This document shows, in pieces, positions 3,839-54,738 of a stretch of 64,000 nt of DNA (the first letter of the stretch is position 1; each line of letters opens with the position of its first letter). The stretch is from Escherichia coli. Lineage in GTDB: Bacteria > Pseudomonadota > Gammaproteobacteria > Enterobacterales > Enterobacteriaceae. The stretch is from assembly GCF_001677475.2 (NCBI RefSeq), contig NZ_CP015229.1; one strand, written 5' to 3'. The position numbers and the translations under genes are program-made. The notes beneath the pieces are model-generated. The model saw only the letters and a program-made list of their open reading frames with translations. It was not told the origin of the DNA and made no database searches.

Positions 3839-3904
3839 AATTACCTCTCGCTTTTCTGCAATAAAAAAGGCGTCATTTCTGACGCCCGTTATGGGTTATA
3901 AAAT

Positions 3905-7606: not shown

Positions 7607-7666
7607 TCCTCACGCTCCATAAACGACAAAACCGCCCGCAGGCGGTTTCACATAAAACATTTTGCA

Positions 7667-8338
7667 TCAGCGACCAATCACCACAACCTGACCACCGTCC
7701 CCCTCGTCTGCCGTGCTGATCTCCTGAGAAGCCACCCGCGACCCCACGCGCATTTCACCGTACAGAACAGGCAGAACATTGCCCTGGGCAACCATGTTAT
7801 CCAGTGAGGAGAAATAGGTGTTCTGCTTACCGTTATCCGTTGTCTGTGTACGGGGAGTTCTGGCTTTCGGTGCCAGCATCTGCGCCACACCACCAAGTAC
7901 CATACTGGCACCGAGAGAAAACAGGATACCGGTCATACCACCGGCCCCAATGGCTGCCCCCCATGCTGCAAGGGTGGCTCCGGCAGTAAAGAATGATCCG
8001 GCAATGGCGGCAGCCCCCAGGACAATCTGGAATACGCCACCTGACTTGGCCCCGGCGACTCTGGGAACAATATGAATCACAGCGCCATCAGGCAGAGTCT
8101 CATGTAACTGCGCCGTTAACCCGGACGTGCTGACGTCCCGCCCGGCAATCCGTACCTGATACCAGCCGTCGCTCAGTTTCTGACGAAACGCCGGGATCTG
8201 CATGACCAGCGCCCGGATGGCTTCGGCCCCCGTTTTCACACGAAGGTCGATGCGGCGGCCAAATCGTTGTAAATCCCCGTAAAGGCAGATGCGTGCCATG
8301 CCCGGTGACGCCAGAGGGAGTGTGTGCGTCGCTGCCAT
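7667..8338 (-). CDS. I: Tail assembly protein I
   Basis: 223 aa, lambda I-like sequence with Gly/Ala-rich hydrophobic C-terminal half. Confidence 0.85.
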   Translation of the reverse strand: MAATHTLPLASPGMARICLYGDLQRFGRRIDLRVKTGAEAIRALVMQIPAFRQKLSDGWYQVRIAGRDVSTSGLTAQLHETLPDGAVIHIVPRVAGAKSGGVFQIVLGAAAIAGSFFTAGATLAAWGAAIGAGGMTGILFSLGASMVLGGVAQMLAPKARTPRTQTTDNGKQNTYFSSLDNMVAQGNVLPVLYGEMRVGSRVASQEISTADEGDGGQVVVIGR

Positions 8339-8979
8339 TTGTCGGTATACCTCTCTCGTTTGCTCAGTTGTTCAGGAATATGGTGCAGCAGCTCGCCGTC
8401 GCCGCAGTAAATGGCGGCATGATTCGGCACCGATGAACCAAAACAGCACAGCAGCACATCGCCCGGTTGTGCTGATGACAACGGCACCTGATACAGCCCT
8501 GTGGCCTCCAGATTATCCAGATAGAGATTCTGGCCGTTACGCCACCAGTCATCCCCGCGATGAAAATCCGGCATCTCAATCCCCGCCAGATGGTAAGCAT
8601 CCCGGAACAGCGTGTAACAGTCCGTCACCCCGTACTCAAAGCGTCGCCCGGTAAGATGTGGCACACAGCGGAACTTGTGAATCGCCCCCCGGCAGACCAG
8701 CCACCACGGCAAATCACTCTGCACCTGCAGCCGCCTGTCGGCCTCACTCAGCCAGGGCAGTCCACCGGGGTGGCTGTGGACCAGCGCCACAATCTCACCC
8801 TGCATTTCTGCCCGCAGCCAGTCCTCCGGCGACATCCGGAAATACGCCTCCGGCTCACCGGAGATATTCACGCAGGGAAGATACCTGTCTCCCTCCGGCG
8901 TTCTCACCACGAAGCCGCACGATTCCGCAGGCGAACACCGCCGGGCGTGCGCCAGAATCGCTGATTCAGTCTGTGTCAT
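8236..8979 (-). CDS. K: Tail assembly protein K (MPN/JAMM plus NlpC/P60-like); alternative start at 8835
   Basis: Starts MTQTESAILAHARR..., contains HSHPGG (JAMM-like) motif; overlaps I by ~100 nt. Confidence 0.8.
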   Translation of the reverse strand: MTQTESAILAHARRCSPAESCGFVVRTPEGDRYLPCVNISGEPEAYFRMSPEDWLRAEMQGEIVALVHSHPGGLPWLSEADRRLQVQSDLPWWLVCRGAIHKFRCVPHLTGRRFEYGVTDCYTLFRDAYHLAGIEMPDFHRGDDWWRNGQNLYLDNLEATGLYQVPLSSAQPGDVLLCCFGSSVPNHAAIYCGDGELLHHIPEQLSKRERYTDKWQRRTHSLWRHRAWHASAFTGIYNDLAAASTFV

Positions 8980-8989
8980 AAAATGGGAT

Positions 8990-9688
8990 TTACTGCGAAA
9001 GTTTGTTAATGGAAAGGAAGCCGCCAAAGTTGCCGACGTTATTGCGGTACTTACAACCGCTCAGGCATTTGCTGCATTTATCCTTCGTGATATCGGACGT
9101 TGGCTGGTCATATTCATCCGCGACCGCCGGACCGTGATAACCGCACTCATCGCCGCGATAGGTCCAGGTGCAGGTGTTGGCCAGCATGATACGTCCCGGA
9201 AAAACAGCGCCGTCCGTTTCCGTCGGCGTGGACAGTACAAAAGAGGCACTCACCGCGCTCAGTTCGCTGCACTGCTCAATGCGCCAGCGGCTGATCACCT
9301 CCTGCTCCGGATCGGCGTCACTGTTTCCGTTGACGAAGTTCACCGCATCCAGAAAACGGGCGTAAACCTTACGCCGGACCACCGTTCCGCCGACCAGACT
9401 CTGCAGATCTTCCGCCATCCCGGTGACCATACCGTACAGGTTAGAAACCGTCAGCGTGGGGCGCGTACTGGTGCCTTTGCCATTCAGTTCGAAACCACTC
9501 CCCTGAATGGGATACGCCTGATACTGTCGCCCCTGCCAGGTGACCGGCTCACCTTTTTCGTTCTGCTCATTACAGAAAAAATAACGTTCTCCACCAACCT
9601 CTGTCAGATCGATTTCCCAGAGCACCACGCTGGCCGACTGCTCCGCACGGGTGCATTCATTCAGTGTTTCCTGTCGGATATCCTGCAT
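8990..9688 (-). CDS. L: Minor tail protein L
   Basis: 232 aa, lambda L-like incl. C-terminal Cys cluster (CSKCLSGCKYRNN). Confidence 0.85.
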   Translation of the reverse strand: MQDIRQETLNECTRAEQSASVVLWEIDLTEVGGERYFFCNEQNEKGEPVTWQGRQYQAYPIQGSGFELNGKGTSTRPTLTVSNLYGMVTGMAEDLQSLVGGTVVRRKVYARFLDAVNFVNGNSDADPEQEVISRWRIEQCSELSAVSASFVLSTPTETDGAVFPGRIMLANTCTWTYRGDECGYHGPAVADEYDQPTSDITKDKCSKCLSGCKYRNNVGNFGGFLSINKLSQ

Positions 9689-10017
9689 CAGTTCACCACC
9701 TGTTCAAACTCTGCGCTGAACTCAACACGCAACATACTGACCCGCGACGACCATTTTGCGCAGGTCACCTTTATCTGCCGGTAGCCATAAGGCGGCGTCC
9801 ACAGAAAGGATTTCCAGCCCCCGTGCTCAGCCAGAAACGACTCAAGCGCCGTGGCCTCCCAACGGGGAACAGAAAGCGTCACGCTGTACGTTTTCAGGTC
9901 GGCATTCAGCCCGGCAGGCGCTCGCTGGGAATAGCCATCACCAAAGCGCACCTTTCTTACGGAAGGGGCCGAAGCCACATCCATACCGGGTTTCACTTTC
10001 CAGCGGAAGGTTTTCAT
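9688..10017 (-). CDS. M: Minor tail protein M
   Basis: 109 aa, lambda M-like; start overlaps H stop. Confidence 0.85.
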   Translation of the reverse strand: MKTFRWKVKPGMDVASAPSVRKVRFGDGYSQRAPAGLNADLKTYSVTLSVPRWEATALESFLAEHGGWKSFLWTPPYGYRQIKVTCAKWSSRVSMLRVEFSAEFEQVVN

Positions 10018-12635
10018 CGTCCACCTCCGGAGAACAGACCACCATCGCGCATCTGCCCGGTCACAACATCCATTGCCGCCTTACGGGCTACGTCATAAAC
10101 AGCCTTCAGTGCCTGTGGCCCTATCTGACCGTTCGTGCCGTCGTTGTTAATCACCACATGGTTATTCTGCTCAAACGTCCCGGACGCCTGCGACCGGCTG
10201 TCCGCCATGCTGCCCGGTGTACCGACATAACCGCCGGTGGCATAGCCGCGCATCAGCCGGTAAAGATTTCCCACGCCAATCCGGCTGGTTGCCTCCTTCG
10301 TGAAGACAAACTCACCACGGTGAACAATCCCCGCTGGCTCATATTTGCCGCCGGTTCCCGTAAATCCTCCGGTCGCAAAATGGAATTTCGCCGCAGCTGC
10401 CTGAATGGCTGTACCACCTGACGCTGATGAGCCGCCACCGGCAGCACCGCCAATGGCGCTGCCGATACTCCCGACAATTCCCACCATTGCCTGCTTAAGC
10501 AGAATTTCTGTCATCATGGACAGCACGGAACGGGTGAAGCTGCGCCAGTTCTGCTCACTGCCGGTCAGCATCGCCGCCATATTCTGCGCAATACCATCAA
10601 AGGTCTGCGTGGCAGCACTTTTAACCTGCGACATACTGTCCGTGGCAGTCTCTTTCCACTCGCTCCAGCCGGACCTGAGGCCTGCCATCCAGCTCCCGCG
10701 AAGCTGGTCTTCAGCTGCCCAGGTCTTTTTCTGCTCTGACATGACGTTATTCAGCGCCAGCGGATTATCGCCATACTGTTCCTTCAGGCGCTGTTCCGTG
10801 GCTTCCCGTTCTGCCTGCCGGTCAGTCAGCCCCCGGCTTTTCGCATCAATAGCGGCCCGTTTTGCCCGTTGCTGCTGTGCGAATTTATCCGCCTGCTGCG
10901 CCAGCGCGTTCAGGCGCTCCTGATACGTAACCTTGTCGCCAAGTGCAGCCAGCTGGCGTTTATACTCCAGCGTCTCATCTTTATGCGCCAGCAGGGATTT
11001 CTCCTGTGCAGACAGCTGGCGACGTTGCGCCGCCTCCTCCAGTACCGCGAACTGACTCTCCGCCTTCCACAAATCCCGGCGCTGCTGGCTGATTTTCTCA
11101 TTCGCTCCGGCATGCTTCTCCAGCGTCCGGAGTTCTGCCTGAAGCGTCAGCAGGGCAGCATGAGCACTGTCTTCCTGACGATCGCCCGCAGACACCTTCA
11201 CGCCGGACTGTTTCGGCTTTTTCAGCGTCGCTTCATAATCCTTTTTCGCCGCCGCCATCAGCGTGTTGTAATCTGCCTGCAGGATTTTCCCGTCTTTCAG
11301 TGCCTTATTCAGTTCTTCCTGACGGGCGGTATATTTCTCCAGTGGCGTCAGCAGGCGCTCATACGCCTTCTGCGCCTCTCCGGTATACTTCAGCTGTGAC
11401 GCCTCACGCTCAGCCCGGTCCCTTGCCACCAGTTCACCGGCTTTTTCCATATCCGACTGCAGCGTGGCTGCCGCCAGCCCCAGACGGGCATTTTCACGGT
11501 CATCCCATGCACCCTGAAGGTTGGCACGGAAAGAGGAGGTCTTTCCCCGGCTCTGACTCCGGCTCTGGTACCACTGCCATTTTTTATCCGCCTCATCAAA
11601 TGCCTTCTGCGCACTGGCGAGCATATCCGCTGAGGATTCAGGACGACCGATATCCAGGATGGCATCCCACATCAATTTGAATGCCTTCCCGGTTTTATCC
11701 GCCCAGGTTTCCAGCGTCCCCATGTTTTCTTTCAGGCGACGGGTCTGCTCATCAAAGCCTTTTGTGGCGATATCGTTCGCCGCCTGTAAGGCCCCTGCCT
11801 CATCACCCGAACGCTGCAGCTGCGCAACATACGCAATCTGCTCTGCCGTCACGTTACGGAACTGGCGCGCCATAGCCATCAGTCCCGACGTCGGGTCGGT
11901 GGTCAGCTTTCCAAAAGCCTCTGCAACCTTGTCCACTTCCACACCGGATACAGAAGCAAAACGCGCCACACTCTGGTTGATGGCATCAAACTGCTCACCA
12001 CCACGCACACCGGCATTCACCAGGGCTGCCAGTGACTCACTCGCCTGGTTAAACGTCAGCCCTGCTGCCTGTCCGGCTCTGGAGAGCGTCAGCATGCGAT
12101 CGGCAGTCAGTCCGGACTGATTACCGGAAAGAACAAGGGTTTTATTAAACGCTGAAAGCGTGGAATCCCCCTGGTACCAGGCATACGCCAGCGCACCTGT
12201 CGCCACCGCCAGCGAGGTGACCCCGACCATCGGCAGGGTGATCGCACCGGCAAGCCCCCTGAACATGGGGAGCATCCCGCCGAAGGCGTCCTTCACCTGA
12301 CCGCCCTGTTGCAGCAGAATAAGCCAGGGATTCTGACCACCGGCAAGCTGCGTGGCGATATCCGTAAACTGTGCAGGCAGGGTACGCATGGCCGCTTTAT
12401 ACTGCCCGACGGAAATCCCGGCTTTTTGTGCAGCCAGCGCCTGACGGCTCAGGCCCTGTTCAACGGCAGTGGCCTGTTTCTTAAAAGACTGGCTGACACG
12501 CCCGGCCATCAAATCCGCAAGGTCACTGGTTTCACCCAGTTCTTTCTTTACCCGTGCAGCCTCTTCAGAAAAACGGGTTGAATCCAGTGTAAGAACAGCT
12601 GTCAGATCGGCAAAATTACCCGCCATAGCGTACAC
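10014..12635 (-). CDS. H: Tail tape measure protein H
   Basis: 873 aa, Ala/Gln-rich helical protein between the G-T chaperone and M. Confidence 0.9.
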   Translation of the reverse strand: MYAMAGNFADLTAVLTLDSTRFSEEAARVKKELGETSDLADLMAGRVSQSFKKQATAVEQGLSRQALAAQKAGISVGQYKAAMRTLPAQFTDIATQLAGGQNPWLILLQQGGQVKDAFGGMLPMFRGLAGAITLPMVGVTSLAVATGALAYAWYQGDSTLSAFNKTLVLSGNQSGLTADRMLTLSRAGQAAGLTFNQASESLAALVNAGVRGGEQFDAINQSVARFASVSGVEVDKVAEAFGKLTTDPTSGLMAMARQFRNVTAEQIAYVAQLQRSGDEAGALQAANDIATKGFDEQTRRLKENMGTLETWADKTGKAFKLMWDAILDIGRPESSADMLASAQKAFDEADKKWQWYQSRSQSRGKTSSFRANLQGAWDDRENARLGLAAATLQSDMEKAGELVARDRAEREASQLKYTGEAQKAYERLLTPLEKYTARQEELNKALKDGKILQADYNTLMAAAKKDYEATLKKPKQSGVKVSAGDRQEDSAHAALLTLQAELRTLEKHAGANEKISQQRRDLWKAESQFAVLEEAAQRRQLSAQEKSLLAHKDETLEYKRQLAALGDKVTYQERLNALAQQADKFAQQQRAKRAAIDAKSRGLTDRQAEREATEQRLKEQYGDNPLALNNVMSEQKKTWAAEDQLRGSWMAGLRSGWSEWKETATDSMSQVKSAATQTFDGIAQNMAAMLTGSEQNWRSFTRSVLSMMTEILLKQAMVGIVGSIGSAIGGAAGGGSSASGGTAIQAAAAKFHFATGGFTGTGGKYEPAGIVHRGEFVFTKEATSRIGVGNLYRLMRGYATGGYVGTPGSMADSRSQASGTFEQNNHVVINNDGTNGQIGPQALKAVYDVARKAAMDVVTGQMRDGGLFSGGGR

Positions 12636-13069
12636 CTCCTGGAATTCCCTCAGACACCATCATCAGCATGGCTTCATCCTCTGTACTGCTCCGCATGTCA
12701 TCACTGACCGTAACGATTTCCTTCCCGTCAGCCCCAAAGCGGACACCACCAGAAAGTCCTGCCGCTTTCCGCATCAGCATATCGTCCTCATCCGGCATCT
12801 CCGTCTGCTCATCATCACGTCGGGGTGCAAGCAGACTGAAATCCGCCGGATGCATATCCGGATCGCAAAAAAACAGGCTGAGTACGGCGTACATCAGCCC
12901 GGAAAAATGCATATCCAGCTGGGTATCCTGAAAATAATGCGTGCGGTAAAAACGGTGCCAGTCGGCATATTCGGTGGATGTCATCCCGGCAAGCATGGTG
13001 CGCCAGTCAGGCCTCCCCATCTCACGCGCCAGTCTGAGGGCAAAATTCAGCTCGCCGTCGAAGACTTTC
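12616..13069 (-). CDS. T: T-frame extension of tail assembly chaperone (G-T fusion made by -1 frameshift)
   Basis: Open -1 frame downstream of slippery heptamer in G; continues ...GKVFDGELNFALRLAREMGRPDW... Confidence 0.8.
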
Positions 13070-13478
13070 CCGCAGAAAAATCATCATCAGTAAGCGCATT
13101 ATTTTTCGCCACTTCGGTGATATCCGTATCCACATGAACAGGCTCACTCATCCCGGACAGACGCAACACCACGTCTTCCGCCCGGGCAATGGCATCAGCA
13201 GGCCAGGTGGTCAGGACTTCCTGCTCAATCTGCATCACAGCCTCATTCATTGACGGTGACTCCGTTTTCTGTGGATGGTTATGCCACAGGGACATCGCCA
13301 CCAGAAACGCCCCGGTTCTGACAAGGTCTTCCACGCTCACCTGCAGGTTGCCGCTGGCTTCAGCCTCTTCTGCCCGCCGTTTCAGGAGGGCAAGATGCTC
13401 AATACGCTGCAGCGCAGACAGTTCGGAAAGGGTGACGGACACGCCGTTATATTCAAATTGTTCTGTTTTCAGAAACAT
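13047..13478 (-). CDS. G: Tail assembly chaperone G
   Basis: 143 aa starting MFLKTEQFEYNGVSVTLSELSALQRIEHLALLKRR (lambda G-like). Confidence 0.9.
   Translation of the reverse strand: MFLKTEQFEYNGVSVTLSELSALQRIEHLALLKRRAEEAEASGNLQVSVEDLVRTGAFLVAMSLWHNHPQKTESPSMNEAVMQIEQEVLTTWPADAIARAEDVVLRLSGMSEPVHVDTDITEVAKNNALTDDDFSAGKSSTAS
13064..13070 (-). other. Programmed -1 ribosomal frameshift slippery site G GGA AAG
   Basis: Heptamer GGGAAAG (minus strand) in codons GCG GGA AAG, 5 codons before the G stop, same as the lambda G-T site. Confidence 0.85.
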
Positions 13479-13498
13479 GCTTTTATCACTCCCTCAGC

Positions 13499-14248
13499 TT
13501 AACCCGCAACACCATCCGTGACGGTAATTTCTGCCACTGCCGCAAACTGACCATTTCCGGTCACCACAGGGATCTGCGCTTTACCGGCCGCAACACCTTT
13601 CACCGTGATCGTGTTCCCTTTCACGGTAATGGTGGCGAAATTCTGATTCGCTGACGTGGCGCGGAAGGTTTTATCCGTCGCCCCTTCCGGCTGAACGGCC
13701 ACAGTCAGGGTGATATTCTGACCTTTTGCCACATTGCCCGTTGATGGCGTCACGGTAATACCGGTGACCGGCGTGATGTCCCCCTGATCTTCCGCCAGCG
13801 ACGGACGGCCGATATTGGTGATCTTCACGGTACGGGTGATCACCTCTTTGGCGGTCACCGCTTTACCAATGGCGCTCACCCAGCCACGGAACACATCCAC
13901 CGTGCCGTTCGGGAAACGGATTTTGTAGGCCCGGCTCTCACTGCTGTCAAACCAGGCGATCAAATCGCGCTGCCCTTTCTCGCCGGGCTTCCAGGCCAGC
14001 GTAAAACTGGTATCCCCTGCTGATTTCTGCCCCTGCCCGGTGGATACCCAGTCCGCATCATCATCATCCAGATAGTTATCATCGTAGGATTCTGCCGTCA
14101 TCTCGCCGGGTGTCAGATCCTTTATTTTTGCCAGGCGCGTCCACTCATCGTCTGACAGCGGGTTTGCATAAGCATCACCAGTGCCGGTGTACACCCATAG
14201 TGTGGTGCCGGAACCTTTCACCGGCTCAAGAGGATTTGGTATTGCCAT
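13499..14248 (-). CDS. V: Major tail tube protein V with C-terminal Ig-like (Big_2) domain
   Basis: 249 aa, lambda V-like; C-terminal Ig-like repeat ([22 protein letters not shown]). Confidence 0.9.
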
Positions 14249-14255
14249 ATCGTCC

Positions 14256-14654
14256 TCACATCTCGTAGGTAATTTTCCACAGGAGATCTGCCGATCCCCA
14301 CATCATAAACTCATCATCCCGGCGGTAGTCATACCCCTGAAGATTCATCTTCAGCAGTAACGCACTGAGGCCGGGAACCGCCTCCAGCGCAGGAAGGATT
14401 TTCTCTTCCATCCACATATCCAGTGCCGAGTCCGATTCTTTTGCCCTGAGAAAAACTTCAATATGCAGTGTCGCCTCCCAGGTCCCCTCATCAACGAACT
14501 CGTCAGCAGCAGACGCATCAGTCAGGTAAACAGCAACAGCAGGTAGTTCCTGTTCATCAATAAAAACCGGGCGGCCGTCAAACCAGCTCACCCGCTCAGA
14601 AATATTTTCTTTCAGGGCAGACAGAACTGCCGCCCGTATTTCACGGTGTTTCAT
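14256..14654 (-). CDS. U: Tail terminator protein U
   Basis: 132 aa, lambda U-like ends ...[25 protein letters not shown]. Confidence 0.85.
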
Positions 14655-14666
14655 ACCCCCTCCCTG

Positions 14667-15290
14667 TCATTTTCTTTTCAGCACCAGGCGTAACTGATGC
14701 GTCATGGCTTTCATCATCTGCACCGGTAATTTTTCCCGGTACATCCGGTCCCGTTCACGTTCAAAGGTTTCTGCCAGCGGTCCGGCAGTCGGAATCTTCA
14801 CCACTTCGATCGGCAGACGGTGGCGTTTCGTCCTCCCTTTGCTGTCCGCACCGGTGGACGATGATGCCCACGGCATACGCTGCATCACATGCCACCGGCC
14901 ATTTTCCAGCCGGGTAATAAAAGCATTCGGGATCCGCCGTTTCCCGACAATCAGCACACTGCTACCGCCTTTCGTGACCGAACGCTCACCTTTCTTTCGC
15001 CGCTTTCTGCGGGAAAGCCGCACGCTGGCCGTCCCCAGTTTTATGGCGGGCAGATTACCGGTGTTGATGATGACCTTCGCATAAACCCTGTCTGCGCTGG
15101 CCCGTTGCAGGCGGATACGCTCACGGATGAGACGGCGTGGGACCGCCAGCTCCCGGGCAACCGAAGAGGCCGTTTTCGCGATGATGGACTCCGCCACACG
15201 GTTAAGCGTCGTGGCGGCAGCCCGGGGAACGGCACGGCGGTTAATCGCATCCAGATTTTTCATGGCCTGCGCCAGACCTTTTATCGCCAT
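14667..15290 (-). CDS. Z: Tail completion protein Z
   Basis: 207 aa starting MAIKGL..., basic RRKRRKKG patch, lambda Z-like. Confidence 0.8.
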   Translation of the reverse strand: MAIKGLAQAMKNLDAINRRAVPRAAATTLNRVAESIIAKTASSVARELAVPRRLIRERIRLQRASADRVYAKVIINTGNLPAIKLGTASVRLSRRKRRKKGERSVTKGGSSVLIVGKRRIPNAFITRLENGRWHVMQRMPWASSSTGADSKGRTKRHRLPIEVVKIPTAGPLAETFERERDRMYREKLPVQMMKAMTHQLRLVLKRK

Positions 15291-15292
15291 AC

Positions 15293-15574
15293 TTATTCCT
15301 GTTCGACAAAAATCCGGGGATTACCGTTGTACGTGTCATAACGGGTCACCACCAGTGAGCGACCGTCAAACACAACCACATCATCGCGGGCCGGCCGGTA
15401 CTGCGCTGAAAACACCACCAGTGACAACTGACTGCCGGAAAGCGCCCCCATATCCGCAGACTCATACTCCGGTATCACGTCATACACTACGCCGTTAATC
15501 TCCGCCGTTTTCCCCATCATGCGTACGGTCGCCAGGTCCATCCGGCTGCACATTCGCGCAAACAGATCAGGCAT
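15293..15574 (-). CDS. Head-tail connector protein (FII-like position)
   Basis: ORF upstream of Z; start chosen at MPDLFARM to avoid overlap with preceding gene. Confidence 0.55.
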   Translation of the reverse strand: MPDLFARMCSRMDLATVRMMGKTAEINGVVYDVIPEYESADMGALSGSQLSLVVFSAQYRPARDDVVVFDGRSLVVTRYDTYNGNPRIFVEQE

Positions 15575-15893
15575 TGATTTTAACCGCCACCGTGGTGGTG
15601 CCTGACGGCGCATGCTCCCATGCCATTCCCGCCGCCACTGCACCGTCTGCGGCAGGCTGCACAGTCCCGTCCTTCAGATAAACCGCCACACCGGCCTGAA
15701 TATCGTCGGCAGACTGTTTGGGCAGCAGGAACACGCCTTCGGCGAACCCGTCACCAGTCTCCCCGGCAGGAATATCGGTAATGGTCACTGCCACCATGCT
15801 GCCAACCACCACAGCGGCACCGCTCAGAATGGTCTGATCCCCGGCATTCACCAGCTCAATGGTGGTGCCGTCCTGTACAAAATTTTTAGCCAT
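15567..15893 (-). CDS. Small Gly/Ala-rich head-associated protein (DUF2190-like)
   Basis: 108 aa from MAKNFVQDGTT..., SD GGAGAG; directly downstream of capsid gene. Confidence 0.55.
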   Translation of the reverse strand: MAKNFVQDGTTIELVNAGDQTILSGAAVVVGSMVAVTITDIPAGETGDGFAEGVFLLPKQSADDIQAGVAVYLKDGTVQPAADGAVAAGMAWEHAPSGTTTVAVKINA

Positions 15894-15938
15894 AATGCTG
15901 TCTCTCCGGACAGCCCCCGGGGGGCTGTTTTCAGGCAT

Positions 15939-15957
15939 AAAAAAAGCCCTTTCGGGC
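15939..15957 (-). terminator. Rho-independent terminator directly after the capsid gene
   Basis: Minus strand GCCCGAAAGGGC hairpin followed by UUUUUUU, 22 nt after capsid stop; 17-bp palindrome CAGCCCCCGGGGGGCTG follows at 15911-15927. Confidence 0.65.
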
Positions 15958-15979
15958 AGTGATTGTGATAACGCGGTTA

Positions 15980-17959
15980 TCAGGCCACCGACGAACGCAC
16001 CAGCCCGCGCCAGTCAAGTGGTGCCACACCGGCATCAATACGGATTTTTGTGGCGATACCGTCAGTGGTGAAACCTTCCTGCTGGTCAATGTAGGGGGTG
16101 TCCACACCATCGAGCCAGGCCACTTCAATGGTGTCGGTGCCCTGTGCCGCAGCCAGGTACCAGGTTTTCGGATCTGCCGCATCAAGACGCGCTTCCGCAA
16201 TTACTTCGGCAAAGTTCTGGATCGGGTTAATGACACCGGCGTTTGCATCCGCCCCTTTCACACTGGCCGATTTGATGGTCTGGTTCGCCACCGTCTCCAG
16301 TGACACCGGCACCAGCATAAAGGCCGGACGGATATTCAGGGCGCGATCGCCTTCTTTCTGCAGGCGCATCATCTGACGGGCCGCATCCAGCCCGGAAACG
16401 GAGATCCCGCCGGTGGCTATATTTTTGTGATCGGTATGGAACAGGGCCTTACCGTCTGACAGTTTCGGGTTATCCGTCAGCACCTTGTAAACCAGGTCAC
16501 CAATCGTTGCCTTCGCCGCACGCCCCATCTTCATCGGCACGTCCACCAGCATATTCAGATCATCATTGATAATGGCCTGGCGGGTGATGGAGAAAATCTC
16601 CCCGTAGGTGGCCAGAGCAATGGTCTCCTTGCGATCTGAGGTGGTGATGTATTTATACTCCGCCCCCTCACGAACCTGACGCAGAGAACCAAAACCGCCC
16701 ATCCCCACGCGATACGCTGTTTTGAAGTCTGACAGGCGTCCCTTACGGGTCCACTTCTGGAAGGTTTCTTCTGATTCCTCCCAGCCCTGGATCAGCCCCT
16801 TGTTCGACACATCCAGCAGAATATTGCCAAAATCAGAGGTGCTGTGCGTCAGCGCCAGCCCGACCATCTGCATGGGGTTATAACTGGCCACCCCAATACC
16901 ACGCTCGGTCAGTGACATGCGAGCCCATTCACGCAGGGTCATCCCGTTATAGACATTATCCTTCTCGACATTTTCATATCCGGCACGGGCCAGCATCGCC
17001 TGGCGGATCCCGTCTCCCACAAAATTGCCGTTTCCGGCATAAATATGGGCCGGTGTGTTTTTGTTGGTCGGCGAGGACTCCTTGCCCATTTCATTCAGAA
17101 GGCGCTCGCGGGCCATTTCCAGCGAACAGTCAGGATCGGCCACACACTGCGCCTGAAGCGCCTGATAGCGCCCGCCAAACATGGCAAACAGATCGTTAAT
17201 GCCTGACATGCGGGCTTTCTGCTCAGCCATAACGCGGGCGCGAATGGTCGCCTCATCAGACACTGCCGGTACCGGTGATGGTTCTGTTACCGCCGGTGCA
17301 GGGATTGTCACTGTGGTATCACGCGGGGCACTGTTGTGTGGCTGCGTGATCATATTTCGGATGGATTCCGGCATCTTTTTAAATTCCTCTGTACGTGTTG
17401 ACTGAATACATGCCATTGCCTTAACGGCTGGCGTCACCTGGTCAGCAAATCCGTGTGCCAGACACTCGGCACCGGACATCCAGGTCTCATCCGCCAGCAT
17501 GGCGGCAATTTCATCGGTAGTTTTTCCGGTTTTCTGCGCATATACCGGCACCATAACCGACTCAAGTTTGTCCAGACGTTCGGCATAAGTGCGCATTTTC
17601 TCCGCATCACCACCGCTGATCCCCCAGGGTTTATGGATCATCATGAAGGCATTTTCCGGCATAATGACCGTGTCACCGGCCATCGCAATCAGGGATGCCA
17701 TCGAGGCGGCAACGCCATCCACATACACGGTAATGGCCGCACCGTGATTTTTCAGGGCATTAAAAATGGCGATGCCTTCAAAGACATCGCCACCCGGTGA
17801 GTTGATGTGGAGATTAATGTGGGTGATATCACCCAGGGCATTCATATCGCTGACAAACTGCTTCGCGGTGACGCCCCAGAAACCAATCTCGTCATAAATA
17901 TAAATATCCGCCTCACCCTGACCCCCCGCCTGCATCCTGAACCAGGATTTATTCTTCAT
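15980..17959 (-). CDS. Prohead protease (ClpP/S49-like) fused to major capsid protein
   Basis: N-terminal protease core (INSPGGDVFEGIAIFNAL...VDGVAASMASLIAMAGD) and long C-terminal capsid-like region in one ORF; start MKNKSWF placed just after portal stop. Confidence 0.7.
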   Translation of the reverse strand: MKNKSWFRMQAGGQGEADIYIYDEIGFWGVTAKQFVSDMNALGDITHINLHINSPGGDVFEGIAIFNALKNHGAAITVYVDGVAASMASLIAMAGDTVIMPENAFMMIHKPWGISGGDAEKMRTYAERLDKLESVMVPVYAQKTGKTTDEIAAMLADETWMSGAECLAHGFADQVTPAVKAMACIQSTRTEEFKKMPESIRNMITQPHNSAPRDTTVTIPAPAVTEPSPVPAVSDEATIRARVMAEQKARMSGINDLFAMFGGRYQALQAQCVADPDCSLEMARERLLNEMGKESSPTNKNTPAHIYAGNGNFVGDGIRQAMLARAGYENVEKDNVYNGMTLREWARMSLTERGIGVASYNPMQMVGLALTHSTSDFGNILLDVSNKGLIQGWEESEETFQKWTRKGRLSDFKTAYRVGMGGFGSLRQVREGAEYKYITTSDRKETIALATYGEIFSITRQAIINDDLNMLVDVPMKMGRAAKATIGDLVYKVLTDNPKLSDGKALFHTDHKNIATGGISVSGLDAARQMMRLQKEGDRALNIRPAFMLVPVSLETVANQTIKSASVKGADANAGVINPIQNFAEVIAEARLDAADPKTWYLAAAQGTDTIEVAWLDGVDTPYIDQQEGFTTDGIATKIRIDAGVAPLDWRGLVRSSVA

Positions 17960-19451
17960 GCTGGCTGTCGGTGGCCTGCTGACGCTGTTGTTCAGTTCCG
18001 GCACTGTTGCCTCCTTTGTCGTTGGCGGGGTCAGTATCAAAGACCAGCCCCAGCCTGCGGTTTTCCTCAGTTTCCGCCTTACGGCGACGTTTGACCTCAT
18101 CCGGGTTGCGCCCGCCTGCGCGGATCCAGTCGGATTCCGTCGCGGCACCACCCCGGATCTGTATCCGCCAGGCTTCAGCCTCCTTAACCGGGTCAATCCA
18201 CGGCATCACCGGACCGGAATACGTCGCGTTATATAGCGTCTTCATCTCCACATCCGCCGGAATTTTCAGCAGACCTGCCGCAACCACCATATTCAGCCAT
18301 GTCCGGTACACCGGGCGGGTTACCGCACCAATAAAACAGTCCTGCAGGATCAGGTAACCATCCGTGGACTCGACCAGCTCCTGCCGCTGGGCGCTGTAGG
18401 TGCCGTTATAGTTACGCGCCGCACTGGAAAAGCTCAGACGACTGCCAGCTGCCACTGCACGCAACTGGCCGTTGCGGAAAGTTTCAAGGTTGGGATTGGG
18501 ACGATCGGATTTGACCATGCCGATATCCTCGCCCTTGCGCAAATCGTCATAAATAATTCCCGGGGTGATATGGACTTCCCGCTCGGTTTCTTTGCTCCCC
18601 GGATCTTCATAGTCCTGTCCGTCACCTTTACGGATATACAGTCCCAGCGCCGCAGCAATACGCGCCGCTGTCAGTTCCGCATCCTCATACTCCTTAAGGG
18701 CACTGATCCGCATCAGCACCCCCGATAACATGGATGAGCCTCGCGTCTGATGCAGACGACGAGTGAACTTCAGGTGGATCATTTTTCCGGCGGCGATTTC
18801 TTTCGTATCACTCTGCCGACCACTGACCGGATAATTTTTATAAACCAGATATTTTTTCGGTCTGCCCCACTCATCAAGAAAAACCCCCTGATTCAGCCCG
18901 GCGGATTCATCACTGCGCATGGGAACAAAATCCGGCTCCATCGCTTCAAGCCAGAATGGCACTCCCGCCGTCCGTTCCAGACCGTTTCCCGCACCACTGA
19001 CCATCTGCGCAAACACTTCACCATCCCGCAGCCAGGTCCGCAGCAGTAAACGCTCAAGCACGGGACGGGTATACTGCCCTGTCACATCCGGACTCACGGA
19101 CCATTCAGCCCACAACCGGCGGATATCCGCAGCCAGCTCTGCCGCCATTTCCCCGTTTTTTCGTAATGGCTGAGGCTCCACAGTAATTCCTCTGGCACCA
19201 ATCACCCGCTCTTCAAGCTTGTCAAACACACCAATCACCAGGTCATGATTGATATCCAGAAAACGGGCCTGCTCCCGCAGGGAAACCGCGCCATATTTAC
19301 TGAGTTGATCAGCAGATCGATTTTCACGCCGGGCTTTATGTGTCCGGGTCGGTTTCACCGCCTCATAGGCCATGATTAACGCCCTTGAACGCAGTCTGGC
19401 CGCTTTCCAGCCTGGAGAGAACACGCCTATCACATCATCAATAATTGCCAT
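17949..19451 (-). CDS. Portal protein (lambda B-like)
   Basis: 500-aa ORF between W-like gene and protease-capsid gene. Confidence 0.8.
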   Translation of the reverse strand: MAIIDDVIGVFSPGWKAARLRSRALIMAYEAVKPTRTHKARRENRSADQLSKYGAVSLREQARFLDINHDLVIGVFDKLEERVIGARGITVEPQPLRKNGEMAAELAADIRRLWAEWSVSPDVTGQYTRPVLERLLLRTWLRDGEVFAQMVSGAGNGLERTAGVPFWLEAMEPDFVPMRSDESAGLNQGVFLDEWGRPKKYLVYKNYPVSGRQSDTKEIAAGKMIHLKFTRRLHQTRGSSMLSGVLMRISALKEYEDAELTAARIAAALGLYIRKGDGQDYEDPGSKETEREVHITPGIIYDDLRKGEDIGMVKSDRPNPNLETFRNGQLRAVAAGSRLSFSSAARNYNGTYSAQRQELVESTDGYLILQDCFIGAVTRPVYRTWLNMVVAAGLLKIPADVEMKTLYNATYSGPVMPWIDPVKEAEAWRIQIRGGAATESDWIRAGGRNPDEVKRRRKAETEENRRLGLVFDTDPANDKGGNSAGTEQQRQQATDSQHEE

Positions 19452-22256: not shown

Positions 22257-22379
22257 CTACGCCTCCTCCACATACCCCTCTGAACAGAAGTGATTCTGTT
22301 TTTTTGTAAAGAAATGCCGCCACACAAAGATGTCGAACAAAAATTGGCCACAACCATCATCTTTTTTGCATCAATTACA

Positions 22380-26383: not shown

Positions 26384-26548
26384 TCACGTCTGTGTATTTT
26401 TTACACTCTTCAGCAAAGGCAACACCATTATCACCATCCCCGCCACCAGCACACCATCTGCCAGTACCGACATCAGCCGTCCGGTGAAATCCACTGCCAC
26501 TACCAGAAACAGCAGGATGGCAGCCAGCACAAGGCGCGCACTTTTCAC
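26384..26548 (-). CDS. Putative 54-aa two-TM membrane peptide, GTG start overlapping preceding stop
   Basis: VKSARLVLAAILLFLVVAVDFTGRLMSVLADGVLVAGMVIMVLPLLKSVKNTQT; GTGA overlap with upstream gene. Confidence 0.4.
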   Translation of the reverse strand: MKSARLVLAAILLFLVVAVDFTGRLMSVLADGVLVAGMVIMVLPLLKSVKNTQT

Positions 26549-26970
26549 AGGTACTGCTCCAGTGGTAGCTGCAGCGCCTGAGCAATTTTCTTGAGCTGTG
26601 CTTCTTCATCCGGACCAATACCATCCTGGTCAGCGATATCCAGACACAGGCACAGCACATTAACTGCGTCATCAGTACCTGCAATATCAGCCAGCTGGCG
26701 GAGGGCTTCGGCATTGGCAGAACGCGGCGATGCTTCATAACGGGCGCGGATATTTGCACTCATTTGTGCAATCTCACCCGAGAACGGCGCAAAGGCAGGA
26801 AGTGCTGCAATGGTTTTCTCCAGTACCGCGATTTCTTTCGCGTCACAGGTGCCGTCAGCATATGCAATGGAATACGCACCCCAGACGGTCGCCTCCACTG
26901 CATCGCGATTCTCCATCTTCTTCACTTCGGTAATGGCCTTGCGTGTTTTCTTTTTGAAAATACCAAACAT
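26545..26970 (-). CDS. TerB-like (tellurite-resistance TerB / DjlA N-domain-like) protein
   Basis: 141 aa, two helical half-repeats each with a DG...E...L signature (AYADGTCDAKEIAVLEK ; IADQDGIGPDEEAQLKKIAQALQL). Confidence 0.45.
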   Translation of the reverse strand: MFGIFKKKTRKAITEVKKMENRDAVEATVWGAYSIAYADGTCDAKEIAVLEKTIAALPAFAPFSGEIAQMSANIRARYEASPRSANAEALRQLADIAGTDDAVNVLCLCLDIADQDGIGPDEEAQLKKIAQALQLPLEQYL

Positions 26971-28067: not shown

Positions 28068-28142
<75 letters not shown>

Positions 28143-28145
28143 ATA

Positions 28146-28221
<76 letters not shown>

Positions 28222-29521: not shown

Positions 29522-30340
29522 TCAATTATGTTTTAAGAATGGATAGGTAAAGAATAACAAGTGACACAGATTCAGACCAAAATGGAAAAGGGTTGCCACC
29601 CACAAGCGCCCACTCCACATCCATGACAATCCATACACAACACCAGATAACGTGGCAAATAATACAAGTAAAGCACCACCTGAATAGTGATAAAAACCAA
29701 ACAACAAAGACGCCACAATTAACGCAACCAATGGAGACGTCACTTCTGATAGCCGTGATTGAATATACCCTCTAAATAATGACTCCTCTGCCAGAGACAC
29801 AAAAAACAAATTAGCCAATATAAACTCTGGCAACCACTCTGGAAAATGAATCTCTGGCTTTAACCCACCAAAAAAAACAGCCAAAAACAGGATAAGAGGA
29901 ACAGAGAGCAACAGAGCCGCCCATTTCCACAAAGACACTTCTGATTTCACTTCTTTTTTAAAAAAAGAAGCTGTACACAGGACTAACAAAAATGGCACCA
30001 GCGCTTTATCAAAATTAAAATACATTGTATAGGGAGTGCTTTGAGGTCCGACAGTGACAGACTTTAGCACTACAGGATTGTGAAACCCTGGCCATAAATG
30101 AAAAGATAATGCTATGGCTGATAAAACTATGCCAGCTTCATATATGGATTTAGCCCAGGCGTTATATTTCCAGTTGAACTTCAAAATAATAAAAAAAACG
30201 ATTGTAGCAACAAAAAACAACACCGGCCAATCAATAATATCATTAAGCACAGCCAGGACAACAGACACCGTCAACAATGAAAAAGCCACTACCTTATGCC
30301 AACTGAGAGTTGACAGTGACAGTGCTAACACAATCCACAT
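29522..30340 (-). CDS. CPBP-family intramembrane metalloprotease (Abi/CAAX protease domain)
   Basis: Multi-TM protein with the family motifs EESLFRGY (EExxxR), FGFYH and HFGLN; encoded in AT-rich DNA. Confidence 0.7.
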   Translation of the reverse strand: MWIVLALSLSTLSWHKVVAFSLLTVSVVLAVLNDIIDWPVLFFVATIVFFIILKFNWKYNAWAKSIYEAGIVLSAIALSFHLWPGFHNPVVLKSVTVGPQSTPYTMYFNFDKALVPFLLVLCTASFFKKEVKSEVSLWKWAALLLSVPLILFLAVFFGGLKPEIHFPEWLPEFILANLFFVSLAEESLFRGYIQSRLSEVTSPLVALIVASLLFGFYHYSGGALLVLFATLSGVVYGLSWMWSGRLWVATLFHFGLNLCHLLFFTYPFLKHN

Positions 30341-30494
30341 AAACACTCCTTTTATTTAATGATGAAGATTGATTATCAATATTTTCAATTCACCTGGCAA
30401 CATTTTGTTTACCTTCCATAAAATTCATGACCATCAAAAAAATAAACATATTAATTATAAACACAGAAAACATAACCCTCGTCACTATATATCC

Positions 30495-43977: not shown

Positions 43978-44187
43978 ATGGCTATGAGCAGCTTATTTTT
44001 AACCGAAGATGAATTGCTAATATTAACGGGCTGCAAATATGCAAGCCACCAGCGAAAATGGTTAATGGAAAACGGGCTTCCGTTCTATACCAATCGTAGT
44101 GGCAAACCGATTGTCAGCCGGGATCTATTTACCTGCAATAAAACTTTACCACCACGCGAGGTAGAGCCGAATTTTGGTGCAATCTGA
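43978..44187 (+). CDS. xis: Excisionase-like protein
   Basis: 69-aa ORF immediately upstream of and overlapping integrase start. Confidence 0.6.
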   Translation: MAMSSLFLTEDELLILTGCKYASHQRKWLMENGLPFYTNRSGKPIVSRDLFTCNKTLPPREVEPNFGAI

Positions 44188-45212
44188 TGGGAAGACGAAG
44201 GAAAAATCCTGAACACGAAAAATTACCTCCAAATGTATACCCAAATAAATATAGTTATGTATGGAAACCAACATCCAGAGAATCTGTCACACTAACCGCC
44301 ATCAAGGATGGTTTAGCTGCTTTATGGAAAAAGTATGAGGAAACTGTAAATAATCGCGATCGCGCAATGACATTCGGTCGCTTGTGGGAAAAATTCCTCG
44401 CCAGCGCCTATTACAGTGACCTCAGTCCAAGAACACAAAAAGATTATCTGCAACATCAAAAAAAGTTGCTTGCCGTATTCGGTAAGGTGCCGGCAGATTC
44501 CATAAAACCAGAACACATCCGTCGATACATGGACAAGAGAGGGGAACAGAGTAAAACGCAAGCCAACCATGAAAAAAGCAGTATGTCCCGCGTTTACAAT
44601 TGGGGGTATGAGCGAGGGTACGTGAAGGGTAACCCATGTGCAGGTGTAAGTAAATTCAAGGCCAAAAACCGCGAACGATATGTAACCGACAAAGAATACC
44701 AGGCAGTATTAAGTGTTGCACCTCTTCCTGTTTTTATCGCAATGGAAATTGCCTATCTGTGTGCAGCGAGGGTTTCCGATGTGTTATCACTGAAATGGGA
44801 GCAGATTGGAAACGACGGGATCTTTATCCAGCAAGGGAAAACAGGGAAAAAACAGATAAAAGCATGGAGTCCACGATTACAGGCGGCGATCGAAAAAGCA
44901 AAACAGTTACCAACATCTGCCTATGTAATCAGCAATCAATATGGCAACCGATATATGTACAAAGGTTTTAACGAAATGTGGGTAGAAGCAAGAAATCACG
45001 CAGGCAAAATTTCAGGTATTTTAACCGACTTCACCTTTCATGATCTGAAGGCGAAAGGAATTTCAGACTATGAAGGAAGCAGCCGGGATAAGCAACTTTT
45101 CTCTGGTCACAAAACCGAAGGGCAAGTGCTAATCTATGACAGAAAGGTTAAAGTTTCACCAACACTTGATGTCCCGTTACCTGATAATATTCCAAGAAAA
45201 TATTCCAAGTAA
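44187..45212 (+). CDS. int: Tyrosine integrase
   Basis: 341 aa; C-terminal catalytic region with R...HDLKAKG...GHKTEGQVLIY; 3' end 43 nt from serU. Confidence 0.9.
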   Translation: MGRRRKNPEHEKLPPNVYPNKYSYVWKPTSRESVTLTAIKDGLAALWKKYEETVNNRDRAMTFGRLWEKFLASAYYSDLSPRTQKDYLQHQKKLLAVFGKVPADSIKPEHIRRYMDKRGEQSKTQANHEKSSMSRVYNWGYERGYVKGNPCAGVSKFKAKNRERYVTDKEYQAVLSVAPLPVFIAMEIAYLCAARVSDVLSLKWEQIGNDGIFIQQGKTGKKQIKAWSPRLQAAIEKAKQLPTSAYVISNQYGNRYMYKGFNEMWVEARNHAGKISGILTDFTFHDLKAKGISDYEGSSRDKQLFSGHKTEGQVLIYDRKVKVSPTLDVPLPDNIPRKYSK

Positions 45213-45254
45213 TTCCAAGTGTGATTTTTGTCACTGACTTAATGATGTGTAAGT

Positions 45255-45344
45255 GATTGAATTTTGGCGGAGAGAGGGGGATTTGAACCCCCGGTGGAGT
45301 TGCCCCCACTCCGGTTTTCGAGACCGGTCCGTTCAGCCGCTCCG
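45255..45344 (-). tRNA. serU: tRNA-Ser (anticodon CGA), serU; prophage attachment site
   Basis: 90-nt tRNA with long variable arm, anticodon loop CUCGAAA, GGTTCAAATCC T-arm, CCA end. Confidence 0.9.
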
Positions 45345-45447
45345 GCATCTCTCCGTTCAGATGGTTGCCATGATGCCAGGAAATTTGGCATTTTAACAGT
45401 CCCTGTCCGTGCAATTTTGTTCAAGTGACGAGTTTGCGAGCAAAACG

Positions 45448-46421: not shown

Positions 46422-46734
46422 AATTCTAAAAATTCGCTTTTTTAGCGCAATGTCACTGACCTTAGTTGAACATTGTTTTTTAACGGATAGCGGTTTTTTA
46501 ACATCTTAAGCGCCCTCGACCTTTATGGTTGAGGGCGTTTTGCTATGAACGCCATCACCATTTTCCCCTCGATTATAAAACTTGAGTTATTCAGTAGTCT
46601 CCCCTCTTGCAACTCACACCCAAAACTGCCTAACGAAAAGTTATTAATTTTCAATCATATTGCTATCAGGATTTACATTTTTTCGCTGTGCTAGAAAGGG
46701 CGCATTTATGTTAGCTCGTTCAGGGAAGGTCAGC

Positions 46735-54738
<8,004 letters not shown>

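What the first reader, a model, noticed from the sequence alone, without database searches (positions are those of the whole stretch)
13047..13070. Conserved G-T programmed -1 frameshift signal
The slippery heptamer G GGA AAG is in the correct frame five codons before the G stop, and the -1 frame is open into T. This indicates the tail-chaperone recoding mechanism is intact and that the two ORFs should be annotated as G plus a G-T fusion, not as separate genes.
Basis: partly seen in the sequence, partly recalled or inferred. Interest (0 to 1): 0.25.

Follow-up and report, generated by a model that had tools for sequence, protein, structure and literature searches.

The report
Lambda-type G-T tail-chaperone frameshift site
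This is the ordinary, well-known ribosome "slip" signal that lambda-like phages use to make a small amount of a longer tail-assembly helper protein; it is intact in this E. coli prophage.

Summary
On the minus strand, the gpG homologue (13478..13047, 143 aa) carries G GGA AAG at 13071..13065. It is in the X XXY YYZ phase, with five codons (SSTAS) before the TGA stop. The -1 frame has no stop from the heptamer to the T stop at 12618..12616 (151 codons).

The predicted 287-aa fusion is 70% identical to lambda gpGT, and the slip sites align codon for codon. It matches the G and T family models, and the genes sit between the major tail and tape-measure genes as in lambda.

In 60 distinct junction sequences, all keep a Lys slip site (N NNA AAR) and none has a -1-frame stop. 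Third-codon-position variability in the T frame starts at the slip site. The ATG that RefSeq uses as the T start is Met in only 13 of 60.

Frameshifting was not measured here; the ~4% rate is carried over from lambda.

A possible downstream RNA helix is not conserved across the family. This is textbook biology, and similar DNA is found in 3,488 of 5,426 complete E. coli genomes. Interest is low.

The parts
13047..13478 (-). Gene G: tail assembly chaperone gpG homologue, 143 aa. This is the zero-frame product, ending at TGA 13049..13047.
   Evidence: ORF and translation. Matches PF06894 at 1.6e-49 and TIGR01674 at 2.3e-48. Annotated 'phage tail assembly chaperone G' in the 99.9% identical E. 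coli N96 stretch.
13065..13071 (-). Slippery heptamer G GGA AAG (Gly-Lys in both frames), the site of the -1 shift.
   Evidence: Position and phase. The heptamer and codon position are identical to lambda. It is kept in 79 of 80 close relatives.
12616..13478 (-). G-T fusion coding region: 13478..13065 in frame 0, then 13065..12616 in frame -1, with base 13065 read twice. The predicted product is 287 aa.
   Evidence: Constructed and translated. It is 70% identical to lambda gpGT across the junction (E = 6e-148).
12616..13064 (-). T-frame (-1) coding segment downstream of the slip site. The 45 nt at 13065..13021 lie upstream of the ATG at 13020..13018 that pipelines take as the T start (base 13065 is shared with the heptamer).
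   Evidence: The frame is open. The TIGR01715 match begins before the ATG. Third-position variability in the T frame starts at the slip site, and that ATG is Met in only 13 of 60 relatives.
13081..13089 (-). Three consecutive TGA codons in the -1 frame (G's GAT GAT GAT read out of frame), three codons upstream of the heptamer. They close the T frame on the 5' side, so T has no upstream start of its own.
   Evidence: The translation reads '***FFCGKVF'. The -1 frame is open for only 3 codons upstream of the heptamer.
13489..13495 (-). Shine-Dalgarno-like GAGGGAG, 10 nt upstream of the G start codon. It would be the single translation start serving both G and G-T.
   Evidence: Read directly from the sequence. 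No comparable motif precedes the ATG at 13020; the upstream sequence there is ctggcgcgtgag.
13499..14248 (-). Major tail tube protein (gpV homologue with a C-terminal Big_2 domain). It is the inferred binding partner of the T domain.
   Evidence: PF16461 at 8.3e-67 and PF02368. The partner role is from PMC5009743.
10014..12626 (-). Tape measure protein (gpH homologue). Its start overlaps the T stop, as in lambda. It is the inferred binding partner of the G domain.
   Evidence: PF06791 at 2.1e-68 and PF09718. Annotation. The overlap is read.

Best explanation
[quoted passage not shown] It belongs to a lambdoid prophage of E. coli that lies next to the tRNA-Ser(cga) gene.

Ribosomes start at the G start codon. 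Most read straight through G GGA AAG and stop five codons later, giving gpG (143 aa). A small fraction slip back one base while tRNA-Gly and tRNA-Lys occupy GGA and AAG, and re-pair on GGG and AAA. They then continue in the -1 frame for 149 more codons, giving gpGT (287 aa). By analogy with lambda that fraction would be about 4%, roughly 1 in 30.

By inference from lambda, many gpG molecules plus a few gpGT coat the tape measure protein through the G part. The T part recruits the major tail protein, so the tail tube polymerises to the right length. Neither protein ends up in the virion.

Shown here: the sequence anatomy, homology, gene order, and evolutionary conservation of the slip site and of -1-frame coding from the slip site onward.

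Inferred: that slippage actually occurs, its rate, and the protein interactions.
For: Anatomy:
- The heptamer is in phase, five codons before the stop, and the -1 frame is open for 151 codons.

Homology:
- The fusion is 70% identical to lambda gpGT, with aligned slip sites.
- It matches Pfam PF06894 + PF06223 and NCBIfam equivalogs TIGR01674 + TIGR01715.
- The local nucleotide context is nearly identical to lambda.

Synteny:
- The order Z-U-V-G-T-H-M-L-K-I-J is the same as in lambda.

Conservation:
- 79 of 80 close IMG/VR relatives keep GGGAAAG five codons before the stop.
- More distant relatives have A AAA AAG (Stx phages), G GAA AAG (phi80, mEp237, mEp043, Fels-1, Gifsy-1) or G GCA AAA followed directly by TAG. 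All are in the same phase at the same junction.
- Across 60 distinct junctions, 60 of 60 have N NNA AAR and 0 of 60 have a T-frame stop.
- T-frame third-position entropy is 1.34 bits against about 0.7 bits for positions 1 and 2, starting at the slip site.
- The ATG annotated as the T start is Phe in 47 of 60.
- The phi80 record explicitly annotates the slippery sequence and a joined G-T CDS. Gifsy-1 annotates T as made by frameshifting.

Literature:
- The lambda slippery sequence is GGGAAAG, and the zero frame is kept about 96% of the time (PMC3296357).
- The 30:1 ratio is crucial. G binds the tape measure protein and T binds the major tail protein (PMC5009743).
- G_GGA_AAG is highly shift-prone in E. 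coli (PMC5009743).
Against: - Nothing in the sequence argues against it.
- There is no direct measurement of frameshifting for this prophage.
- The window's downstream 90 nt fold no better than shuffles (z = -1.07), so no stimulator is evident. The low rate known for lambda does not obviously need one.
- Whether this prophage is inducible, and the site therefore still used, is unknown. All virion genes do look full-length.
Confidence: 0.95

Rival explanations
1. T is a separate gene translated on its own from the ATG at 13020..13018, either by de novo initiation or by re-initiation after ribosomes stop at the G stop 26 nt upstream. On this reading the heptamer is an inherited but irrelevant sequence.
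For: An ATG-started ORF of 134 aa exists (12616..13020). RefSeq/PGAP annotates exactly that ORF as 'phage tail assembly protein T'.
Against: - No Shine-Dalgarno motif precedes that ATG.
- The 45 nt between the slip site and the ATG evolve as coding sequence in the T frame.
- The TIGR01715 match begins 11 residues upstream of the Met.
- The codon is Phe (TTC/TTT) in 47 of 60 relatives, so it cannot be the family's start.
- In lambda the T frame is expressed as the G-T fusion (PMC5009743, PMC3296357).
Confidence: 0.03
2. The frame change is made by RNA polymerase slippage on the A run, giving an mRNA with one extra or one missing base, rather than by the ribosome.
For: Some relatives carry a longer A run at the site, such as AAAAAAG in the Stx phages. 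Transcriptional slippage is used in other systems (PMC5009743).
Against: - The run here is only three A's. By my own knowledge of the field, productive transcriptional slippage needs runs of about 7-9 identical bases.
- The conserved feature across the family is the tRNA-Lys tetranucleotide A_AAR in a fixed codon phase, not run length.
- The lambda event is described as ribosomal (PMC5009743).
Confidence: 0.01
3. The signal is a fossil. The prophage is defective, and the site, though intact in sequence, is no longer expressed or under selection in this genome.
For: Many E. coli prophages are cryptic. The related N96 prophage carries IS66 insertions and pseudogenes elsewhere. Nothing here shows induction.
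Against: - In the window all tail and head genes from the terminase to the tail fibre are full-length ORFs.
- G, the slip site and T show no disruption.
- This is a statement about use, not about what the element is, so it does not compete with the mechanism.
Confidence: 0.15

Closest known systems
Bacteriophage lambda genes G and T (gpG NP_040593, gpGT; slip site G GGA AAG at 10109-10115 of NC_001416)
   Same: - The heptamer, phase and distance to the G stop (5 codons) are identical.
- The Gly-Lys junction is followed by VFDGEL in both.
- Protein identity is 70% over the whole fusion.
- The neighbours are the same (V upstream, H downstream with overlapping stop/start), and both match the same Pfam/TIGRFAM families.
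   Different: - The C-terminal ~25 residues of the G part just before the slip site are unrelated (…EPVHVDTDITEVAKNNALTDDDF versus …YEFVVNNAPEQTEDAGPAEPV).
- The fusion is 8 aa longer.
- The codon after the heptamer is GTC rather than lambda's GTG, so the GTG that RefSeq uses as lambda's T start (10115) is absent here.
- The head module is different: a ClpP-like protease/major capsid fusion rather than lambda C/Nu3/E.
G-T frameshift sites of other lambdoid phages (phi80, mEp237, mEp043, Fels-1, Gifsy-1, Stx-converting phages)
   Same: - The architecture is the same, and so is the junction position in the protein alignment.
- The A-site Lys codon is the same (A_AAG).
- The conserved T-frame motif ..EL.F...LARE..R.DWR.ML follows directly.
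   Different: - Their first three heptamer bases differ: G GAA AAG, A AAA AAG, or G GCA AAA followed by a stop.
- The G stop is 0, 1, 4 or 5 codons away.
- Their T parts are shorter, at 115-119 aa against 151 here.
E. coli dnaX -1 frameshift (A AAA AAG)
   Same: It is a -1 tandem slip that depends on the single E. coli tRNA-Lys on A_AAG (PMC5009743).
   Different: - By my own knowledge, dnaX shifts at about 50%, helped by an upstream Shine-Dalgarno-like element and a downstream stem-loop.
- Here no upstream SD-like element is visible and no conserved downstream structure was found. That fits a low-rate site.
- dnaX frameshifting yields a shorter product, whereas this one yields a longer one.

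Membership tests
Lambda-type tail assembly chaperone G/GT with conserved -1 frameshift (Levin 1993; Xu, Hendrix & Duda 2004, as cited in PMC5009743) | Two overlapping ORFs lie between the major tail protein gene and the tape measure gene. | tested here: met
   V 13499..14248, G 13047..13478, T frame 12616..13071 and H 10014..12626 are all on the minus strand.
Lambda-type tail assembly chaperone G/GT with conserved -1 frameshift (Levin 1993; Xu, Hendrix & Duda 2004, as cited in PMC5009743) | The upstream ORF belongs to the gpG family. | tested here: met
   PF06894 scores 167.3 bits (cut-off 27). TIGR01674 (equivalog) scores 163.6 bits (cut-off 74.45).
Lambda-type tail assembly chaperone G/GT with conserved -1 frameshift (Levin 1993; Xu, Hendrix & Duda 2004, as cited in PMC5009743) | The downstream ORF is in the -1 frame relative to G and belongs to the T family. 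| tested here: met
   PF06223 scores 50.3 bits (cut-off 25.9). TIGR01715 (equivalog) scores 200.1 bits (cut-off 77.35). The frame relation is.
Lambda-type tail assembly chaperone G/GT with conserved -1 frameshift (Levin 1993; Xu, Hendrix & Duda 2004, as cited in PMC5009743) | A slippery heptamer X XXY YYZ lies in the zero-frame phase near the 3' end of G. | tested here: met
   G GGA AAG at 13071..13065 is in phase 2 of the ORF, five codons before the stop.
Lambda-type tail assembly chaperone G/GT with conserved -1 frameshift (Levin 1993; Xu, Hendrix & Duda 2004, as cited in PMC5009743) | The -1 frame is uninterrupted from the slip site to the end of T. | tested here: met
   151 codons with no stop. 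0 of 60 relatives have a stop over the first 35 codons.
Lambda-type tail assembly chaperone G/GT with conserved -1 frameshift (Levin 1993; Xu, Hendrix & Duda 2004, as cited in PMC5009743) | T-frame coding begins at the slip site and T has no conserved start of its own. | tested here: met
   Codon-position entropy switches at the heptamer. The ATG is present in only 13 of 60 junctions. The -1 frame is closed by TGA TGA TGA three codons upstream.
Lambda-type tail assembly chaperone G/GT with conserved -1 frameshift (Levin 1993; Xu, Hendrix & Duda 2004, as cited in PMC5009743) | Two proteins, G and GT, are actually made at a ratio of about 30:1. | not testable with these tools
   This needs an expression or reporter assay. 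The lambda values come from PMC5009743 and PMC3296357.
Lambda-type tail assembly chaperone G/GT with conserved -1 frameshift (Levin 1993; Xu, Hendrix & Duda 2004, as cited in PMC5009743) | The G part binds the tape measure protein, the T part binds the major tail protein, and both are needed for tail assembly but absent from virions. | not testable with these tools
   Known for lambda (PMC5009743). Inferred here from 70% identity.
Stimulated -1 PRF sites (dnaX / IS-element type) | A conserved downstream stem-loop or pseudoknot lies 5-9 nt after the heptamer. | tested here: not met
   - A helix 8 nt downstream is predicted in the window and in lambda (z = -1.07 and -2.52), and it looks supported in 10 sequences.
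- In 61 diverse junctions only 71% of its cells pair.
- The robust covariation measures do not exceed shuffles (353/500 and 399/500).
- RNAalifold does not recover it.
Stimulated -1 PRF sites (dnaX / IS-element type) | An upstream Shine-Dalgarno-like stimulator lies about 10 nt 5' of the heptamer. | tested here: not met
   The upstream sequence is ...ctgatgatgatttttctgc and has no GGAGG-like motif. It is also not conserved between the window and lambda.
Transcriptional slippage sites | A long homopolymer run (about 7 or more identical bases) lies at the frame junction. | tested here: not met
   The run is only AAA.

The most novel reading that the evidence does not exclude
Two readings are not excluded.

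1. Within the lambda/phi80/Stx subclade, to which the window belongs, frameshift efficiency may be tuned by a clade-specific long-range helix. It would start 8 nt after the heptamer (GGCGAGC at 13056..13050 pairing with GCUUGCC at 12994..12988). It shows one apparent compensatory change between lambda-type (G...C) and phi80-type (A...U) sequences.
2. The prophage's own tRNA-Gly(UCC) at 28068..28142 reads the P-site codons GGA/GGG and may modulate slippage.

Either would add a regulatory layer to a site usually treated as an unassisted slippery heptamer.
Probability: 0.07. Interest if true: 0.35.

Novelty: already known. Interest (0 to 1): 0.07.

Why it matters
Mainly for annotation. Automatic pipelines (RefSeq/PGAP, and many phage records) list G and T as two genes. 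They give T an artificial start, so the real 287-aa product is missing from protein databases. A joined CDS with ribosomal slippage at 13065 would be the correct annotation. Biologically it confirms only that this prophage keeps an apparently functional tail-assembly module. It opens no new question.

Tried and rejected
1. Downstream stimulatory RNA structure.
   - Single-sequence folds gave z = -1.07 for the window and -2.52 for lambda.
   - RNAalifold and pair counting on 10 sequences looked encouraging: 92.8% of cells paired and 5 pairs changed on both sides.
   - I then fetched 80 more diverse loci and rebuilt a gapless 61-sequence alignment.
   - There, the helix nearest the slip site (alignment columns 28-34 with 90-96) was paired in only 71% of cells.
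   - The two robust measures did not exceed shuffles, and RNAalifold's consensus was -1.5 kcal/mol with an unrelated 4-bp hairpin.
   - I rejected it as a family feature. It remains a weak clade-level possibility.
2. Independent initiation of T. Rejected.
3. Solved structures. A PDB sequence search found only spurious low-complexity hits to designed WD-repeat proteins, so there is no structural homologue by sequence.
4. Literature. I tried to read Xu et al. 2013 (PMC3762263) for details on stimulators, but it is not held. A second literature search added nothing new. Levin et al. 1993 and Xu et al. 2004 could be cited only through reviews.
5. First related-loci scan. The scan with the G protein returned only relatives that were 94-100% identical. 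These were useful for showing that the heptamer is kept, but not for covariation.

Full report
**Observation.** The relevant genes are on the minus strand.
- The 143-aa ORF at 13478..13047 ends ...TDDDFSAGKSSTAS*.
- Its 3' end reads GAT GAT GAT TTT TCT GCG GGA AAG TCT TCG ACG GCG AGC TGA.
- GGGAAAG occupies 13071..13065. It starts at offset 407 of the ORF, which is phase 2, so the zero frame reads G GGA AAG.
- Five sense codons separate it from the TGA at 13049..13047.
- The finding's range (13047-13070) misses the first G of the heptamer by one base. It is otherwise accurate.
- The -1 frame reads ***FFCGKVFDGELNFALRLAREMGRPDW...GVRYGG*. It is closed by three TGA codons three codons upstream of the heptamer. 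It is open for 151 codons downstream, to TAA at 12618..12616.

**Is it more than chance?**
- The 7-mer alone is not unusual: 13 copies in the window against 8.5 +/- 3.0 expected.
- The configuration is unusual. I scanned all 154 stop-to-stop ORFs of at least 100 codons. Sixteen have an in-phase XXXYYYZ in their last 30 codons. Three of those are followed by at least 100 open -1 codons. Only this one ends in AAAG.
- From their positions I read the other two (58870, 15947) as ORFs in non-coding frames; this was not tested.

**What it is.**
- I joined the frames at the heptamer, which gives a 287-aa protein. It is 70% identical (E = 6e-148) to the lambda gpGT that I built the same way from NC_001416. 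The two slip sites align codon for codon (...SAGK|VFDGEL...).
- The fusion matches Pfam Phage_TAC_2 (residues 1-117) and Phage_tail_T.
- It also matches the NCBIfam equivalogs phage_lambda_G (1-138) and phage_lam_T (143-252). The T match begins 11 residues before the Met that pipelines use as the T start.
- The neighbours are homologues of gpZ, gpU and gpV (with a Big_2 domain) upstream, and of gpH, M, L, K, I, J and Lom downstream. This is lambda's order.
- The nucleotide context is almost the same as lambda's. From TTCTGC GGGAAAG through ...GCGCGTGAGATGGGG there are five differences in about 60 nt.

**Where the window comes from.**
- The window is E. coli chromosome carrying a lambdoid prophage.
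- The virion-gene module (3242-22703) is 99.1% identical to a prophage of E. coli N96.
- The prophage ends with an integrase (44187..45212) next to tRNA-Ser(cga). This is followed by an M90 peptidase gene, tRNA-Asn and a giant inverse-autotransporter adhesin.
- DNA similar to the G-T stretch occurs in 3,488 of 5,426 complete E. coli genomes.

**Comparative evidence for recoding.**
- Of 80 close relatives from IMG/VR, 79 have GGGAAAG five codons before the G stop. The remaining locus ends at the G boundary, so no G ORF could be placed in it.
- More distant lambdoid phages keep the site at the same alignment position and phase, with variant first halves:
  - A AAA AAG in Stx phages;
  - G GAA AAG in phi80, mEp237, mEp043, PhiR47_1, Fels-1 and Gifsy-1.
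- The phi80 record annotates the slippery sequence and a joined G-T CDS. Gifsy-1 annotates T as part of a frameshift product.
- A second scan with a T-domain alignment brought 80 more loci at 50-91% identity to Fels-1 T. Of these, 67 have N NNA AAG. The other 13 have G GCA AAA or G GAA AAA followed directly by TAG.
- The pooled gapless alignment has 60 distinct junctions. In it:
  - every sequence has a Lys slip site of the form N NNA AAR;
  - none has a T-frame stop;
  - variability by T-frame codon position is 0.72, 0.68 and 1.34 bits in the 45 nt between the slip site and the window's ATG;
  - the pattern is the same further downstream (0.63, 0.37, 1.30 bits);
  - upstream of the heptamer the periodicity belongs to the G frame.
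- The codon that is ATG in the window and in lambda is TTC or TTT (Phe) in 47 of 60.
- T-frame translation therefore begins at the slip site, not at an internal start.

**Mechanism (inferred).**
- From the literature on lambda:
  - the slippery sequence is GGGAAAG;
  - the zero frame is kept about 96% of the time;
  - both Lys codons are read by the single tRNA-Lys(mnm5s2UUU), whose thiolation level changes the gpG:gpGT ratio and phage yield (PMC3296357; PMC7618472);
  - the roughly 30:1 ratio is crucial;
  - gpG and the G part of gpGT bind the tape measure protein, and the T part binds the major tail protein;
  - neither protein is in the virion (PMC5009743);
  - G_GGA_AAG is among the most shift-prone heptamers in E. 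coli (PMC5009743).
- Given the identical heptamer and near-identical flanks, the same events and a similar low rate are the best inference for the window. This was not measured.
- G has a good Shine-Dalgarno motif (GAGGGAG, 13495..13489). The ATG at 13020 has none.

**Side investigation: a downstream stimulator?**
- Both the window and lambda are predicted to form a helix that starts 8 nt after the heptamer (GGCGAGC...GCUUGCC).
- The fold is not better than shuffles for the window (z = -1.07) and moderately better for lambda (z = -2.52).
- On ten divergent sequences the consensus structure had 92.8% of cells paired and five pairs changed on both sides.
- On the 61-sequence alignment the helix nearest the slip site was paired in only 71% of cells.
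- The measures that are robust to phylogeny were no better than shuffles (353/500 and 399/500). RNAalifold did not recover the structure.
- I conclude that there is no family-wide stimulatory structure. One compensatory change separates the lambda-type from the phi80-type sequences, so a subclade-specific element remains an untested, low-probability possibility.

**Rivals.**
- Independent initiation of T is contradicted by the data above.
- Transcriptional slippage is implausible on a run of three A's.
- Whether the prophage is still active is unknown. That does not change what the element is.

**Verdict.** This is a textbook feature, the orthologue of the lambda G-T site, and it is present in most E. 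coli genomes. Its only practical consequence is annotation: RefSeq/PGAP splits it into two CDS. Novelty: already known. Interest: about 0.07.

Noticed in passing
window 28068..28221 (-): The prophage carries two adjacent tRNA genes, tRNA-Thr(tgt) and tRNA-Gly(tcc) (sequence). tRNA-Gly(UCC) reads GGA and GGG, which are the P-site codons of the G GGA AAG slip site. This is probably just rare-codon supply for late genes. A link to frameshift efficiency was not tested.
   Followed up: no
window 15980..17959 (-): The head module is not lambda's. A single ORF encodes a ClpP-like prohead protease fused to the major capsid protein (annotation of the 99.1% identical N96 module). It is joined to a lambda-type tail module, which is an example of lambdoid mosaicism.
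   Followed up: no
window 44187..45354: A tyrosine integrase gene (44187..45212, +) lies directly next to tRNA-Ser(cga) (45265..45354, -). This marks the prophage end and the likely attachment site. Chromosomal genes follow: an M90 peptidase, tRNA-Asn and others.
   Followed up: partly
window 46660..54738 (+): A 2,692-aa ORF encodes an inverse-autotransporter adhesin. It has an IAT_beta domain followed by about 16-17 Big_1/Invasin_D3 repeats and an Invasin_D4 domain. By my own knowledge of the K-12 gene order it looks yeeJ-like. It is outside the prophage.
   Followed up: no
window 13081..13089 (-): G's Asp-Asp-Asp (GAT GAT GAT) reads TGA TGA TGA in the -1 frame, immediately upstream of the slip site. 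Any ribosome that shifted to -1 in the codons just upstream of this triple stop would terminate there. Lambda lacks this; its -1 frame is open for 13 codons upstream.
   Followed up: partly
L130, L132, L135, L138, L141-L144, L153, L161, L162, L165, L172 (position ~701 of each): In 13 distant relatives the slip site is G GCA AAA or G GAA AAA, with the G stop codon TAG directly after it. This is a variant in which the adjacent stop codon could itself promote the shift.
   Followed up: partly
L001 1216 (NC_001416 position 10115): RefSeq lambda annotates T as a stand-alone CDS that starts at GTG, formed by the last G of the heptamer plus TG. It is not annotated as a joined G-T CDS. In the window this codon is GTC, so that start does not exist.
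   Followed up: yes
window 29522..30346 (-) and 26545..26970 (-): Possible prophage cargo lies between the lysis and Q regions. One gene encodes a CPBP/Rce1-like intramembrane protease family protein. The other ORF (26545..26970) falls in a block that aligns at 98.6% to the N96 region containing a TerB-family protein gene; the ORF itself was not scanned.
   Followed up: no
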